From: Octopus vulgaris
Lineage: Eukaryota
Direction: 5' to 3'
DNA: 64,000 bases
NCBI GenBank assembly: GCA_951406725.2
Contig: OX597820.1
Span: forward strand, 104,904,001-104,968,000
The stretch's first letter is position 1. Each line of letters opens with the position of its first letter. This document shows positions 48,801 to 54,197 of the stretch, one piece after another. The position numbers were made by a program.

Positions 48801-51800
48801 AAAAGGCAGAGTGAATCAATACTCTGTGAACTCAGAATGTAAAGGTATACAACTAAATAGGCATTTCATTGACCACTGTACCAATCCTGCCATAATAATT
48901 TCTTACAGAGATGTAAAGCTACCAATTCTGGGAATAAAGTTAGTCAAGTGACTCCAACGCTAGTACTATATTTTATCAATCCAATTTAGGATCAAATATT
49001 GAATTCTAATATGAGCACAAAGCACCAAATTTCACAGAGAGAATAACAAGACAAAAAGCAAAATTAAAGCTGGTAGAGTTAAACATAAAGGGAGATAACC
49101 GAATTACTCCAACGCATTTTGTCAGACTGTCTACAATTCACACAATATCATTCATTTATCTGATTTGATTTGAAAATATGGAAGTAACTATACAAAATAT
49201 AAAATTCATTATAAATAAATAGATAAGTAAAAATAAAAATAGCTGATCTCAATGCAACATTTAATGTGCAAAACAGACAACTACATATTTTACCATCTGC
49301 CTTGAACTCTCATCATTGTTGTAGTGCACCTGAGCACTGTACACAATGTTTATTATTATTATTATTATCATGAACAGGAAGGAAGTCTAAATACTCAAAC
49401 TTTGGGGAAAAAGAATGCCAGAAACTAAGATATTCTAAATGGGTTCAAATACTAAATGCTGTTAATAAATCTAACAAGGGAAGATATCTTGGGGGAGAAA
49501 AAAAGGAGGGTGGGATTAAATAAAATATTTGGCTAGGAACAAGCTATACACATCAATTCTTAATAAAGGTGGTAGGTTTCTCATCAAAATAAGCATCATG
49601 GAATAAAACAAGCTAAACAATTTAAAACTAAAGAAAACAAAATTTTGTAAAAAGACAAAAGAATATGGATTATATCAATCAAATATAGATATATTTAGCA
49701 TTTTATTTTTATTTTTCGAATATGTTTCAATTTCTTGAGGTTAGGGGACAGGAGGAAACAGGTGGGCAAAAGTTCATGCCTTTCCGTAAGGGCTTAGCAG
49801 AACGAGAGCAGCAAAACCGCTTATGACAAGGCACCAAGCCAAGCCGTAACAGATCCAGCTTACCCACAGCCAAACCTTTACGACAAAGCATTTCGAGAAA
49901 GAAAAGGGTGTAAAGGGAAATAACTCTTTTCTTTCTTTTTTGATTTATTTCATCAGTAAATTGTTATGAAAGTGATTCAAGACCCAAGAGCTTTACGGAA
50001 GCATTTACCGAAATAACGAAATTCTCATTCCTCGAGTCACTTTTCTAACTTTTCTCCAATCATAAATGTAATTAAAAAAAAAAAGAAGGTATATAATTTT
50101 AATATTTCTAATCAGCAGAAAGTTGAGTTCTATTTCTTGTTTGTTTTCCCAAACCTTTGTGTGTGTGTATCAAACTCTCTCTCTATAAAGTCAATTATAT
50201 ATATGAGGCAAAATAAGGATAGGATTGCATGCAGTTGGGTGGTGTGAACAAAGTAATGTGGTGAAGGTTTCACAGGCATGTAACACCCTCGCACAAACCC
50301 CAACTCTTTTTCAAATCAGAAAAATAAATAAATAAATAAACTCATTAAAAAAAAAAAATAACTGCAAACTGTTCAGCATGCATCAACAGTACTTACTTGA
50401 TTCTGTGATCCCCAAGCGGCAGTGAATATAAACGGCAAAGTGTTAATAGCAAGAAATTATGGCAACATCACAATGATATCTTAAGTGTGTGTATGTAGCA
50501 TTTTTTTTTTTTTGCTTTTTTGCTTTTGTAAAAGATATTTGATTAAACAGACTGTTGCCCAAGTCAAGAAACAAAAAAGGATGATTAAACTGTTTTATTA
50601 CACACATACACACTCATAGAATTTTGGAGTTGTTCTGTTTTCTTTTTAATCAAACACTGTATGTAAAGTAGTGGCTTTCAACCATTTTTTGCCTTTGATT
50701 CCTATTTTACTCAGATGAATCCTTATAGCCATCCAGTATTTAAAATATTCTGTTATATTTTTTTATAATTAGATATTATTAGGAATTGTATTTAAAAAAA
50801 AAAAATGAAACTATTTTGTGTATTGTAGAAGTATAAATAATTTATCTGCACATAAACTTTAACAACAAAATCTTATATGGACTCCCAATGGTCATATGAA
50901 CTCTTGAGGATCCAAAACCGCTAAAGCAATAATAATCACTGTGTGTCTGAGAGAGGGGAAGAGGAATCAGGTCTTACAAAAATGTAATTCAGAGAAGTTA
51001 CTGTTCATTGAGAAATAACATAGTAACATGTAAATAGTTGTTTCTCATTTAGGCACAAGGCTAACAATTTTTAGGGTAGGCAGTTTGTCAGTATTACTGA
51101 CCCCAGTACTTGACTGGTACTTTATTTTATTGACCTCAGAAGGACAAATGGCAAAGTTGACCTTTACATGATTTCAACTTAGAATTAACATATGATAAAA
51201 CTCTAAAGAGATGAAAGCACAAAGCTGGCCCTAACAAGATTTGATATATATTGTGATCTCCAGTTCATTTTTTTTTAAATATATAGTTTGCTTCAGCCTT
51301 ATTTTAAGTTCACCACTGAAAGTATTTAAAAGAATAGAACCAATGAAAGTGTCCACTTATGGTCCAACAACATGCCAGAAATAACAAACCAAATCTCTCC
51401 CTCTAATCATACTTCTATCTAAGAAAAAAAGACATCAAAAAATGTTGTGTTCAAATTGTGTCATGCCAAGAGGTCATGAGTGGAATATTTTTGAACATCA
51501 GTTGCCTCAGTCAGAGCTAACCTGGGGCTAAATAACAGCTAAAATCTTATTTTTTTTATCTTGAATTATAGTTAATATTTGAGGAAAATAACTAATTAAA
51601 GTGGAGAGTGACAGAACAGTTGTGTTGTCGAATATAGAAGAAATGTAAATTTAAATAATAATTCTCATAACAAAAAGTAAAATGCATTTAGAATCACTAT
51701 ACATAGTGAATAAGGAACTATAATTCATATAATTGTGTGAGCTAATGCAATATACCTTGTACAAGTAAGTATACAAATTAAAGTATCTGGAATAAGTAAA

Positions 51801-52408
51801 CTGACAAATATACCTTTAGTCTCTCTAGAATATATATATATATATATAAGATTCAGTTGAATTAGGTACTTAAGTTGAGGAACCAAGTCAGTCCGATATT
51901 GTCTCTGCACAGCTCGAAGTTAGGTGAATAAAAAGCAAATAAGTAACAAGAATGTTCAGGTATTAGTGCATTCTTTTATTCTCTAGTTCTGATGAAAGAT
52001 TTGCTATAAAATTATAATGGGGTATCCTATATGTTGAAAACCTGTATGGTCTTATTTCAAATTGATGTAATGCTTGCATTGATTAATAAAATGGAGCCGC
52101 TTGAAATGGCCATAATGCACTAATTCCTGGACATCCTTGTTACTTATTTGCTTCATATATATATATATATATATATATACTCAAAATAAGCAACAAGAAT
52201 AACTTCGGTTGCTTATTTTGATTATAATCACCCCATGGAATTTATATGGATAACACCATACAAAATTCTGGTGCATCTAACTTAAGTACCATATTCATTT
52301 GAATCTAAATTTTGCTGAACTTATTTGTATATATATATATATATAGTGTTCTTTATTTTTTATGCCCTATAAATTCCATATCATTTCCAGTAATTTGGTA
52401 TGTATGTA

Positions 52409-52499
<91 letters not shown>

Positions 52500-54197
52500 A
52501 TATATATATATAAGTGAACCATTCCTACCAATTATTGATAAACAAAGTCATACCTTAAAACAAAAATCTTGGATGGATAAATTAGTATTTTTTTTTTTTT
52601 TGGTTAACTATTACATTATTTATTAACTGTCATTAAACACTACATGGTAAATAACTATTATTAAACAAACACTTGATTTCTTTCCACTACTGTTTATATG
52701 TGATGGTTACGTGCAACTGATTAGAGCTACATGAAATAAACTGAGAGTTTGGATTTTACTGTTAGACTCAGATGTGCTTTAGAATTTACTGAAATGTGTT
52801 CATTTATTCTCTTAGTTAATTGATTACTGTTTGTTTTAGATTACAATTTAGTAGAACTAAACTACACTAAACATATCAGTTTAAACAACATTTAACTTAA
52901 ACATTCATTTCATACACATACAAAAGGCACACATATAAACATACACTCATAGCACTCACAGGTTCACATATACGTATGTTAAAATAACAAAATGATATTA
53001 GTAGTTGGCATGGCATATCGTGGCTTTTGTGTGGAGACTCTTGGTAGAGATTTTTTCTTTTTTTTTTGCAGCTATGTTCAAACAAACCATGCACAAAATT
53101 GTCAAGAAATGAGAAGAAATTACCACAGGCAATCTCGCTACCATCAGGTGCTGGAATTGGCTCTGGAGAATCAAATATGGTAATATATGATTTTTGGGAA
53201 ATTTGGATTATACTACTTGGCATTTTGTAAAGCCTCCAAATTCACAAAATGAAGAGAATTCAGTCAAAAGTAAAAAAAGACGACCCCTCTTTTGTTCTTT
53301 AAAAGCTTTAATTAAACAGCAAGTAATAAACAACAATAATAACAAAGATATTTAAGGGAGCATGAAATTCACAAAAATAGGGAAAAAATTGATGGACAGT
53401 ATCATATATTGGTAATTAAAAGTGACCCTGGCTTCAAAATTGAAGAAAGACATGTGTTGCTTATATCAATCGCAGTAATTTTATTGGTCTTCTGTATTTT
53501 ATGACCGCCCCCCTCGCAGAAGGATGAAAGGCAAAGTTGGCTTTGACAACATTTGAAATCAGAATATACACAGAATGGACTAAATACCAAAAGATATGGT
53601 TTCTCCTGTTCTAAGTTTGCCAATAAGTGGTTAGAATTTAAGAAAGAAAAATTATATTCATGTTCAATTAGAATATACCCTACATATTTTGAATAACTCT
53701 CTGGGAATTACAAACAACTCTGATTTGAATGAGTTGGTTGTGCTTACGAGGGAGAGGTCATAAGAAAATTGCCGAAATATATATATATAAAACCATAAGC
53801 CTTTCACATTCACAATTTGGATGTCTATCCACCTACACTGACAACATTTTTTTTATCACTCAGCTGTGTTATAAATAGTAAACTCTGCCAAAGTTCAAAC
53901 TATCATCTAAAAAAAGCAGAGAATAATTATATGTCACAGATCTGCTCAATCAAAGCTAACCCTGGAGAAGCAGGGGAAGTGATAAACAAAATAACAACTA
54001 CATACTGGTGTTAACAAAGAAGTGTGTTTACAAAGAAGTAGGATTTTCATCAGAAATCTGCCAAATATTTCCTCTTCTGAAAAGGGCAAAATATTAAACA
54101 GGAAAAGAATAAACTACAGGTCATAGACCACAGTAGTTTAGAACAAATTATAAAATGTATAATTATACATATGTGCATACATGTATTTGTATACACA

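What the first reader, a model, noticed from the sequence alone, without database searches (positions are those of the whole stretch)
49864..53162. Three frame-preserving cassette/microexons (39, 6 and 12 nt) stacked in one vinculin intron, all landing in the H4-H5 loop of the actin-binding tail
Seen in sequence: the phase-1 intron between MLGAQ|G and |GSQEDQ holds three AG...GT-bounded segments, each a multiple of 3 and stop-free in every combination. That allows up to 8 isoforms; the fully included loop reads AQ-EPIPAPDGSEIAC-ES-SLAV-GSQED. Each segment has a downstream (U)GCAUG. Established: helices 4-5 of the vinculin tail form the F-actin-binding surface, and the vertebrate metavinculin insert lies at a different site (H1-H2). 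Inference: an independently evolved, combinatorial splicing switch tuning vinculin-actin binding or bundling in cephalopod tissues. Gene predictors would probably miss the 6- and 12-nt exons.
Basis: partly seen in the sequence, partly recalled or inferred. Interest (0 to 1): 0.9.

Follow-up and report, generated by a model that had tools for sequence, protein, structure and literature searches.

The report
Conserved vinculin tail splice inserts
Two of the three small segments are genuine alternative exons of octopus vinculin, already present in public gene models and conserved across molluscs, annelids, brachiopods and arthropods, while the 12-base segment has no support beyond chance.

Summary
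The pattern alone is not evidence: the intron holds 426 such frame-preserving, stop-free segments.

The 39-nt segment (53162-53124) and the 6-nt segment (50402-50397) are real exons. RefSeq isoforms of Octopus vulgaris, O. sinensis and O. bimaculoides, and unnamed transcript assemblies, carry exactly these peptides. Four forms are seen: none, 39, 6, and 39+6.

The 13-residue cassette is not a cephalopod invention. It occurs nearly unchanged in bivalves, gastropods, a chiton, annelids, a brachiopod, a tardigrade, a centipede and ticks.

Both real exons have UGCAUG within 31 nt downstream. The 12-nt segment does not.

The inserts fall in a low-confidence loop between tail helices H4 and H5.

The 12-nt segment (49875-49864) appears in 0 of 204 parsed loops, and 90 decoy segments have better splice signals.

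No paper found describes these exons. Their effect on actin binding is inferred, not shown.

The parts
58442..58532 (-). Penultimate constitutive vinculin exon ([30 protein letters not shown] plus the first base of the next codon). Encodes the end of tail helix H4. Donor CAAG|gtaata.
   Evidence: Sequence. tblastn of Octopus RefSeq isoforms. Helix assignment from the models.
53124..53162 (-). 39-nt alternative cassette exon, phase 1-1, encoding E-PIPAPDGSEIAC.
   Evidence: Sequence. tblastn. The peptide is present in O. vulgaris, O. bimaculoides and O. sinensis isoforms and absent from others. 118 of 168 parsed loops carry the cassette alone, 9 carry it with ES and 2 with the Haliotis cassette.
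53088..53093 (-). TGCATG (Rbfox-type motif) 31 nt downstream of the 39-nt exon.
   Evidence: The probability of such a motif within 40 nt of a random intron site is 0.023.
50397..50402 (-). 6-nt alternative microexon AATCAA, phase 1-1. It turns ...G-S... into ...E-S-S-S.... Consensus donor gtaagt. The upstream AG-exclusion zone is 75 nt, with 2 UGC in the last 40 nt.
   Evidence: Sequence. It is the only hexamer in the intron able to encode E-S. The peptide appears in O. sinensis X4/X10/X11, Pecten maximus and Crassostrea gigas isoforms, and alone in P0011, P0045 and P0086. Splice-signal rank is 2 of 2129.
50377..50382 (-). TGCATG 15 nt downstream of the 6-nt microexon. A second copy starts at 50233 (+164).
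49864..49875 (-). 12-nt candidate segment (would read G/S-LAV). Most likely a chance AG..GT pair in the intron, not an exon.
   Evidence: Sequence. 0 of 433 fetched proteins carry the peptide, and 0 of 204 parsed loops have a matching length. Composite splice-signal rank is 91 of 2129. It has A at -3 and no TGCATG within 100 nt.
46223..46389 (-). Last coding exon of vinculin ([12 protein letters not shown]...[10 protein letters not shown], stop TAA at 46225-46223). Encodes helix H5 and the C-terminal extension. The 3' UTR end was not determined.
   Evidence: 100% identical to Octopus RefSeq vinculin.

Best explanation
The window holds the 3' end of an Octopus vinculin gene on the minus strand. 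Its last intron (58441-46390, phase 1) contains two genuine, independently used alternative exons.

The two exons:
- A 39-nt cassette adds the 13 residues E-PIPAPDGSEIAC.
- A 6-nt microexon adds Glu-Ser and turns the next Gly into Ser.

Both insert into the flexible loop between helices H4 and H5 of the five-helix actin-binding tail. The predicted loop grows from about 6 to about 19 residues, and the helices keep their boundaries. Up to this point the account is shown by tool results.

The module is ancient. The cassette dates at least to the protostome ancestor, and the microexon at least to the common ancestor of cephalopods and bivalves.

The rest is inferred:
- Inclusion is probably promoted by an Rbfox-type factor bound to the UGCAUG just downstream of each exon, so it is probably tissue-regulated (muscle and/or neurons).
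- The microexon also has the long AG-free, UGC-containing acceptor region typical of Srrm/eMIC-dependent microexons.
- The cassette is conserved as strictly as the actin-contacting helices, which argues that it is a specific contact motif rather than a spacer. It would act at the end of the H4-H5 actin interface, modulating actin engagement, packing of neighbouring tails on the filament, or bundling. The microexon enlarges an acidic serine cluster, a possible phosphorylation site.

The 12-nt segment is most likely an intronic chance match.
For: Gene and exons:
- The last exon is 100% identical to Octopus RefSeq vinculin.
- Only the last four coding pieces lie in the window.

Isoforms:
- O. vulgaris P0008 and unnamed P0004 have no insert.
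- O. vulgaris P0003 and O. bimaculoides P0009 carry the 13 residues.
- O. sinensis P0005, P0006 and P0007 carry 13 residues plus ES.
- Unnamed transcript protein P0011, 90% identical to the Octopus protein, carries ES alone.
- 50402-50397 is the only hexamer in the intron that can encode ES.

Breadth:
- Among 168 parsed loops of 175 proteins: 118 have the 13 residues, 9 have 13 plus ES, 3 have ES only, 34 have none, 1 has a vertebrate-like loop, and 3 have a Haliotis-specific extra cassette.
- Named carriers outside molluscs are Owenia (13 of 13 residues identical to Octopus), Capitella, Lingula, Ramazzottius, Scolopendra and six tick species.
- Across 17 distinct cassette variants, P-D-G and one Ile are invariant.

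Structure:
- The PDB alignment opens an 11-residue gap in the vertebrate tail at about residues 1010/1011.
- The AlphaFold model of P0005 has H4 at 883-902 and H5 at 922-960. The insert (905-919) has pLDDT below 50.
- The control model of insert-free P0004 has H4 at 883-900 and H5 at 907-945.

Regulation:
- TGCATG lies at +31 and +15. The chance of this is 0.023 per random site.
- The 6-nt exon has an AG-exclusion zone of 75 nt (top 2.3% of segments) and a full consensus donor, and ranks 2 of 2129.
- Downstream (U)GCAUG enhances inclusion, and Rbfox1 promotes the metavinculin exon (PMC11216089, passages).
- eMIC exons show long AG-exclusion zones and UGC near the 3' splice site (PMC8797185, one passage).

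Function:
- H4-H5 is the major actin interface. In alpha-catenin the H4-H5 loop lies close to the C-terminal extension of the longitudinally adjacent domain on the filament (PMC7588232, passages).
Against: - No RNA-seq, tissue data or orthologous intron could be examined. Tissue specificity, Rbfox or Srrm dependence and any effect on actin are therefore untested.
- RefSeq models can be guided by proteins of other species. The support independent of them is the unnamed transcript assemblies P0004, P0010-P0016, P0045 and P0142.
- The crude splice score ranks the real 39-nt exon only 194 of 2129, below the 12-nt candidate at 91. Signal quality therefore cannot rule the 12-nt segment out.
- One search used an insert-bearing query, so the 118:34 ratio does not measure how common inclusion is.
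- The insert is predicted to be disordered, so a structural role is not evident from the model.
- The serine-cluster and kinase idea rests on recalled consensus knowledge only.
Confidence: 0.8

Rival explanations
1. One reading: all three segments are exons, including an Octopus- or cephalopod-specific 12-nt microexon, giving up to 8 isoforms.
For: - The 12-nt segment has a usable donor (GTGG|gtaagc), a pyrimidine-rich stretch, a UGC at about -16, and a 46-nt AG-free zone. It ranks 91 of 2129 on composite signal, better than the real 39-nt exon.
- Lineage-specific extra inserts do arise at this intron. Examples are a 14-residue cassette in Haliotis (P0063, P0064, P0077), 4 residues in a Mytilus trossulus model (P0342), 7 residues in P0181 and 20 residues in P0226.
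- A 4-residue difference would be hidden inside 90% clusters, whose members could not be listed.
Against: - 0 of 433 fetched proteins contain the peptide, and 0 of 204 parsed loops have a length fitting 12-nt inclusion. These include 6 named Octopus clusters and 8 unnamed close relatives.
- 24 in-phase 12-nt AG..GT segments exist in the intron. At least 3 others have equally good donors.
- The acceptor has A at -3.
- There is no TGCATG within 100 nt, unlike both supported exons.
- The encoded Leu-Ala-Val is hydrophobic in an otherwise acidic, polar loop.
Confidence: 0.07
2. The two exons are real and conserved, but their role is not actin tuning. The inserted loop would instead be a docking or phosphorylation site that controls something else: head-tail autoinhibition, lipid (PIP2) binding, tail oligomerisation or a tail-binding partner.
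For: - The insert is predicted to be disordered (pLDDT below 50), yet its sequence is nearly invariant across phyla. That combination is typical of short linear motifs.
- The microexon enlarges an acidic Ser cluster.
- From passages, the metavinculin literature shows that a tail insert can change oligomerisation and bundling without changing the actin site (PMC2873289; PMC7588232).
Against: - No partner, kinase or lipid effect was tested or could be tested here.
- The loop directly joins the two helices that form the major actin interface (PMC7588232), which makes an actin-related effect the simplest reading.
Confidence: 0.3
3. The 39-nt and 6-nt 'exons' are annotation artefacts, spread among genomes by homology-guided gene prediction, and are not spliced into real mRNA.
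For: Most carriers are automatic RefSeq models. The evidence behind each model could not be inspected.
Against: - Unnamed de novo transcript-assembly proteins carry the same inserts: P0012, P0015, P0016 and P0142 have the cassette, and P0011, P0045 and P0086 have ES alone.
- In this window the exons have intact AG/GT sites, and the cassette peptide is 13 of 13 identical to that of an annelid. That would not be expected of unselected intron sequence.
- Both exons have a proximal TGCATG.
Confidence: 0.02

Closest known systems
Metavinculin (vertebrate muscle splice isoform of vinculin)
   Same: Both are alternative, frame-preserving exons that insert residues into the actin-binding tail of vinculin. 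The metavinculin exon is promoted by Rbfox1 through intronic binding (PMC11216089, passages). The octopus exons carry downstream UGCAUG.
   Different: - The metavinculin insert is 68 residues, lies between H1 and H2 (residues 915/916), and replaces helix H1 by H1' (PMC2873289, passages).
- The octopus inserts are 13 and 2 residues, lie in the H4-H5 loop, and are predicted not to alter any helix.
- The vertebrate chains in the PDB show a gap at the cassette position.
- The two systems are therefore independent solutions at different sites.
Srrm3/4 (eMIC)-dependent neural microexons of bilaterians
   Same: The 6-nt exon is within the microexon size range, is frame-preserving, sits in a surface loop of a cytoskeletal protein, and is deeply conserved. 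Its acceptor region has a long AG-exclusion zone with UGC motifs. These are features reported for eMIC exons (PMC8797185, one passage).
   Different: Neural specificity and Srrm dependence were not tested. The Drosophila paper's main text does not mention vinculin, and its supplementary exon lists were closed. The 6-nt exon has a full consensus donor, whereas fly eMIC exons are reported with weak 5' splice sites (same passage).
Rbfox-activated cassette exons with downstream (U)GCAUG
   Same: UGCAUG lies within 15-31 nt of the donor of both supported exons. Downstream motifs are reported to enhance inclusion (PMC11216089).
   Different: Only motif presence is shown. Motif conservation in other species, Rbfox binding and tissue pattern are unknown.
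Vinculin isoforms already annotated in RefSeq for Octopus and other molluscs
   Same: The 39-nt and 6-nt exons of this window give exactly the loops of O. vulgaris, O. bimaculoides and O. sinensis isoforms.
   Different: The annotation gives no function. The papers found do not describe these exons. The 12-nt segment is in none of the visible models.

Membership tests
Vinculin (Pfam PF01044) actin-binding tail | Sequence membership of the flanking exons | tested here: met
   The last exon is 100% identical to Octopus vinculin isoforms, and all hits carry PF01044. The PDB search gives vinculin tails at E about 1e-67.
Vinculin (Pfam PF01044) actin-binding tail | Five-helix bundle, with the insert site between helices 4 and 5 | tested here: met
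   The models show helices at 792-804, 813-832, 839-866, 870-902 (kinked) and 922-960. The insert lies at 905-919. Helix numbering follows PMC2873289 and PMC7588232.
Alternative cassette exon | Canonical AG/GT borders and frame preservation | tested here: met
   All three segments meet this. So do 426 segments in the intron, so the feature does not discriminate.
Alternative cassette exon | Both inclusion and skipping forms exist in expressed sequences or gene models | tested here: met
   Met for the 39-nt and 6-nt exons: the forms none, 39, 6 and 39+6 are all seen. Not met for the 12-nt segment: 0 of 204 parsed loops.
Alternative cassette exon | Conservation of the exon in other species | tested here: met
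   The 39-nt exon is seen in molluscs, annelids, a brachiopod, a tardigrade, a centipede and ticks. The 6-nt exon is seen in Octopus, Pecten and Crassostrea, plus unnamed fragments. For the 12-nt segment no other cephalopod genome was available, so this was not testable.
Srrm/eMIC-dependent neural microexon | Length of 27 nt or less, with a UGC-containing, AG-poor acceptor region | tested here: met
   The 6-nt exon has an AG-exclusion zone of 75 nt (top 2.3%) and 2 UGC in the last 40 nt (top 8.6%). The size limit of 27 nt is recalled.
Srrm/eMIC-dependent neural microexon | Neuron-specific inclusion that depends on Srrm234/eMIC | not testable with these tools
   No expression data or perturbation data were available.
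Rbfox-regulated exon | (U)GCAUG in the proximal downstream intron | tested here: met
   TGCATG lies at +31 (39 nt) and +15 (6 nt), against a background of 0.023 within 40 nt. The 12-nt segment has only GCATG at +85, against a background of 0.08.
Rbfox-regulated exon | Motif conservation and Rbfox-dependent, tissue-specific inclusion | not testable with these tools
   No orthologous introns or RNA-seq were available.
Metavinculin-type insert | Insert between H1 and H2 that replaces helix H1 | tested here: not met
   The insert lies between H4 and H5. The metavinculin site is 915/916 (PMC2873289).

The most novel reading that the evidence does not exclude
The last vinculin intron is an ancient splicing hotspot, at least protostome-wide. 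It places a near-invariant 13-residue linear motif (core P-D-G..I), and in molluscs a 2-residue microexon, at the tip of the H4-H5 actin-binding face. This would be an invertebrate counterpart of metavinculin: Rbfox-controlled like it, but acting at a different site. It would change how vinculin tails engage or pack along actin filaments in muscle or neurons. Different lineages, possibly including Octopus with the 12-nt segment, would keep adding their own microexons at the same spot.
Probability: 0.3. Interest if true: 0.6.

Novelty: new member of a known kind. Interest (0 to 1): 0.42.

Why it matters
Vinculin is a central force-bearing link between adhesion receptors and actin. Metavinculin, recalled as its best-known tail isoform, is tied to muscle function and cardiomyopathy.

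This work finds a second, independent pair of alternative inserts. They sit between the two helices that form the actin interface and have been kept almost letter for letter across protostome phyla. That points to a regulated property of the vinculin-actin link that vertebrate work would not reveal.

The exons themselves are not new, because they are in RefSeq models. My four paper searches found no description of them. The useful outcome is therefore a corrected picture: two exons rather than three, ancient rather than cephalopod-specific, and a directly testable hypothesis.

Tried and rejected
- **Short-protein search:** A search with the last exon, meant to catch short cephalopod transcript fragments, returned none closer than 93% identity. 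The hits were mostly ORFs starting in the intron of other species.
- **Representative search:** This search was meant to date the cassette beyond protostomes. Of the 43 loops parsed from the hits, only P0176 had the cassette. The proteins are unnamed and isoforms are collapsed, so presence or absence in non-vertebrate deuterostomes or cnidarians stays open.
- **Haliotis cassette:** tblastn of the Haliotis-specific 14-residue cassette against the octopus intron gave only 5-residue chance matches.
- **Repeats:** Self-BLAST of the neighbourhoods of the 6-nt and 12-nt segments found no repeat copies in the window.
- **RNA families:** An Rfam scan of the whole window gave no family at gathering score.
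- **Splice score:** A crude composite score did not separate real exons from decoys. The real 39-nt exon ranks 194 of 2129, so the score was not used to accept or reject the 12-nt segment.
- **Model coordinates:** These were not available, so loop-to-head distances were not computed.
- **Complex prediction:** Not run, because no eukaryotic actin reference is offered and filament binding is a poor case for that tool.
- **Joined exons:** Window exons were never joined into a spliced model for any search or fold. Searches used the last exon alone or stored database proteins.

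
Full report
**What is in the sequence.** The gene lies on the minus strand.
- The upstream exon (58532-58442) ends ...ACT ATG CTT GGA GCC CAA G|gtaata, that is T-M-L-G-A-Q plus one base (phase 1).
- The last exon starts at 46389, after ttttccag. It reads (G)GT TCT CAA GAA GAC CAA..., ends ...[10 protein letters not shown], and stops at 46225-46223.
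- The intron between them is 12,052 nt.
- Inside it lie ccag|AG CCA ATT ... GCC TGT G|gtaatt (53162-53124, 39 nt), cacag|AA TCA A|gtaagt (50402-50397, 6 nt) and aaag|GT TTG GCT GTG G|gtaagc (49875-49864, 12 nt).

The base carried across each border is G or A, and the next two bases are AG, AA or GT. The border codons in any ordered combination are therefore GAG, GAA, GGT or AGT, and none is a stop. I read this off the sequences. Searches were made with the last exon alone or with stored database proteins.

**Is the pattern more than chance?** No. The intron holds 426 AG..GT-bounded, multiple-of-3, stop-free segments of 3-60 nt in this phase. Of these, 33 are 6 nt, 24 are 12 nt and 18 are 39 nt. 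Counting all frames there are 2129.

I built a crude composite of donor match, pyrimidine content, AG-exclusion zone and UGC count. It ranks the 6-nt segment 2nd, the 12-nt segment 91st and the 39-nt segment 194th of 2129. The 39-nt segment turns out to be a real exon, so this score cannot decide reality.

**Independent evidence for two of the three.** I searched with the translated last exon (P0001) among longer proteins. This returned 2817 hits, of which 120 were listed. Their tails show RefSeq vinculin isoforms of three Octopus species whose last exon is 100% identical to the window.

| Protein | Source | Loop between ...MLGAQ and SQEDQ |
|---|---|---|
| P0008 | O. vulgaris | no insert |
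| P0004 | unnamed transcript-assembly protein | no insert |
| P0003 | O. vulgaris | the 13 residues of the 39-nt segment |
| P0009 | O. bimaculoides | the 13 residues of the 39-nt segment |
| P0005, P0006, P0007 | O. sinensis X11, X4, X10 | 13 residues followed by E-S, with the next Gly changed to Ser |
| P0011 | unnamed, 90% identical overall to the Octopus protein | E-S alone |

The O. sinensis loop is exactly what 39+6 inclusion predicts. The hexamer at 50402-50397 is the only AG..GT-flanked hexamer in the whole intron that can encode Glu-Ser. tblastn of these isoforms maps the cassette to 53162-53124. The window holds only the last four coding pieces of the gene.

So four forms have support: none, 39, 6 and 39+6. 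The 6-nt exon was not missed by the RefSeq pipeline.

**How old is it?** A second search used an unnamed insert-bearing tail fragment (P0067) as the query. Together with the loop table (168 of 175 proteins parsed), it shows the 13-residue cassette in these groups:
- bivalves: Pecten, Argopecten, Mizuhopecten, Ylistrum, Mercenaria, Ruditapes, Mya, Dreissena, Pinctada, Crassostrea/Magallana, Ostrea, Saccostrea and Mytilus;
- gastropods: Haliotis, Gigantopelta, Patella, Littorina, Pomacea, Babylonia, Biomphalaria, Lymnaea, Physella, Bulinus, Aplysia and Plakobranchus;
- a chiton, Liolophura;
- annelids: Capitella and Owenia (Owenia seen);
- the brachiopod Lingula;
- the tardigrade Ramazzottius;
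- the centipede Scolopendra;
- six tick species.

The loop counts are:

| Loop class | Proteins (of 168 parsed) |
|---|---|
| cassette only | 118 |
| cassette plus ES | 9 |
| ES only | 3 |
| no insert | 34 |
| vertebrate-like loop | 1 |
| Haliotis extra 14-residue cassette (1 alone, 2 with the 13) | 3 |

These proportions are biased, because the query itself carried the insert.

The Octopus peptide is 13 of 13 identical to that of Owenia and of many bivalves and gastropods. Whole proteins are only 76-79% identical between Octopus and those molluscs. Over 17 distinct variants, P-D-G and one Ile never change.

Named carriers of the ES microexon are O. sinensis, Pecten maximus and Crassostrea gigas. 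The cassette therefore predates the split of Lophotrochozoa and Ecdysozoa, and the microexon predates the cephalopod-bivalve split. The module is, however, independent of metavinculin.

Whether it exists in non-vertebrate deuterostomes stays open. In the search of 50% representatives, only 1 of 43 parsed loops had the cassette. Those proteins are unnamed and isoforms are collapsed.

**Where the inserts fall in the protein.** Aligned to solved vertebrate vinculin tails, the cassette falls in an 11-residue gap right after ...KATMLG-x-x-x. Using the offsets of chains 9qwo_A and 1tr2_A in that table, this is about residues 1010/1011 of the full-length protein.

Two AlphaFold models support this.

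| Model | Mean pLDDT | H4 | Loop | H5 |
|---|---|---|---|---|
| O. sinensis P0005, 39+6 form, 42-sequence alignment | 79.0 | 883-902 | 903-921, pLDDT below 50; inserts at 905-919 | 922-960 |
| Insert-free P0004, control | 78.6 | 883-900 | 901-906 | 907-945 |

The inserts therefore lengthen a flexible loop from about 6 to about 19 residues and are predicted to leave both helices intact.

From passages of PMC7588232, helices H4-H5 form the major actin-binding interface of (meta)vinculin and alpha-catenin. In alpha-catenin the H4-H5 loop lies next to the C-terminal extension of the longitudinally adjacent domain on the filament. From passages of PMC2873289, the metavinculin insert is 68 residues between H1 and H2 (915/916) and replaces H1.

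**Regulatory signals.** On the gene strand the intron has 7 TGCATG. Two of them lie 31 nt after the 39-nt exon (53093-53088) and 15 nt after the 6-nt exon (50382-50377), and a third lies at +164 from the 6-nt exon. A random intron position has TGCATG within 40 nt with probability 0.023.

The 12-nt segment has only GCATG at +85, and 8% of random positions have GCATG within 100 nt. Downstream (U)GCAUG enhances inclusion through Rbfox proteins, and Rbfox1 promotes the metavinculin exon in minigenes (PMC11216089, passages).

The 6-nt exon also has a full consensus donor, a 75-nt AG-free acceptor region and UGC motifs. These features are reported for eMIC/Srrm-dependent microexons (PMC8797185, one passage). 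They are motif-level inferences, and no expression data could be consulted.

**The 12-nt segment.** No protein among the 433 fetched contains its peptide before the last exon. None of the 204 parsed loops has a length that 12-nt inclusion would give. A third search for short fragments found no cephalopod sequences at all.

The absence has limits. The site is also prone to lineage-specific additions:
- a 14-residue cassette in Haliotis;
- a 4-residue insert in a Mytilus trossulus model (P0342);
- 7 residues in P0181;
- 20 residues in P0226.

The segment's splice signals are passable. Against it stand the A at -3, the missing TGCATG, a hydrophobic peptide in an acidic loop, and 23 other in-phase 12-nt candidates. 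I put it at about 7%.

**Mechanism, with what is shown and what is inferred.**
- *Shown:* there are two real, independently used, deeply conserved alternative exons. They lie in the H4-H5 loop, and each has a proximal downstream TGCATG.
- *Inferred:* inclusion is Rbfox-type and tissue-regulated. The cassette acts as a specific contact motif at the end of the actin interface, because it is conserved as tightly as the actin-binding helices despite being predicted disordered. It would alter actin engagement, packing of neighbouring tails, or bundling.
- *Inferred from recalled kinase consensus only:* the microexon turns G-S-(Q/E)-E-D into E-S-S-S-(Q/E)-E-D, enlarging an acidic serine cluster that could be phosphorylated.
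- *Rival:* the loop could instead control autoinhibition, lipid binding or a partner. I give this rival about 0.3.

**Comparison and novelty.** The module works like metavinculin, as a tail insert with a likely Rbfox link, but it fails the defining site test and is not a member of that type. It fits the known classes of Rbfox-type cassette exon and conserved microexon.

The exons are already in RefSeq models. Four literature searches found no description of them.

| Search | Result |
|---|---|
| vinculin + microexon | 33 papers, 15 listed; none of the 15 titles or abstract openings concerns a vinculin microexon |
| vinculin / alternative exon / H4-H5 loop | 148 papers, 12 listed; nothing relevant |
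| the peptide core, matched anywhere | 1 unrelated paper |
| microexon + cephalopod + alternative splicing | 2 papers, neither on vinculin |

**What stayed unchecked.**
- The supplementary exon tables of PMC8797185 and similar papers were closed and might list this gene.
Orthologous introns therefore could not be aligned.

**Verdict.** The finding is ordinary in kind. It is of moderate interest for vinculin biology because of the site and the extreme conservation of the cassette.

Noticed in passing
Not in the window: proteins P0063, P0064, P0077 (Haliotis), P0342 (Mytilus trossulus), P0181, P0226: The same intron position in the H4-H5 loop carries other, lineage-specific inserts: 14 residues in Haliotis, 4 in a Mytilus trossulus model, 7 in P0181 and 20 in P0226. 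This suggests a recurrent splicing hotspot.
   Followed up: partly
Not in the window: P0150 versus P0167 (Littorina saxatilis X1/X2): The two isoforms differ only in the last cassette residue (Cys versus Val). They may use alternative donors or be allelic models.
   Followed up: no
window 7700-11512 (-): Open frames with reverse-transcriptase (PF00078, E 1e-22) and weak endonuclease/exonuclease/phosphatase matches. This looks like a LINE-like retroelement remnant downstream of vinculin.
   Followed up: partly
window 32512-37611 (+): A cluster of long open frames (up to 508 aa). One has a Pif1 helicase 2B-domain match (33636-34220, E 6.5e-11), and the largest have no Pfam hit. This may be a Helitron-like element or an unannotated gene.
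   Followed up: partly
window 20309-20472 and 59387-59494: A 17-nt tandem repeat (9.7 copies, 95% match), and a GA-rich 19/37-nt tandem repeat inside the vinculin intron just downstream of the exon at 59741-59616.
   Followed up: no
window 50233-50228 (-): A second TGCATG lies 164 nt downstream of the 6-nt microexon, so two of the intron's seven copies flank that exon's donor side.
   Followed up: no
Not in the window: P0002 (Acipenser sinensis record flagged UNVERIFIED_CONTAM): This was the top-scoring hit because its vinculin C-terminus is duplicated in tandem in the model. It is probably an assembly or annotation artefact.
   Followed up: no
Not in the window: P0244 and short ORFs P0324-P0343: Many short database 'proteins' are ORFs that start in the intron and run into the last exon at the same Gly codon. 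The intron position is therefore shared across many invertebrate lineages.
   Followed up: no
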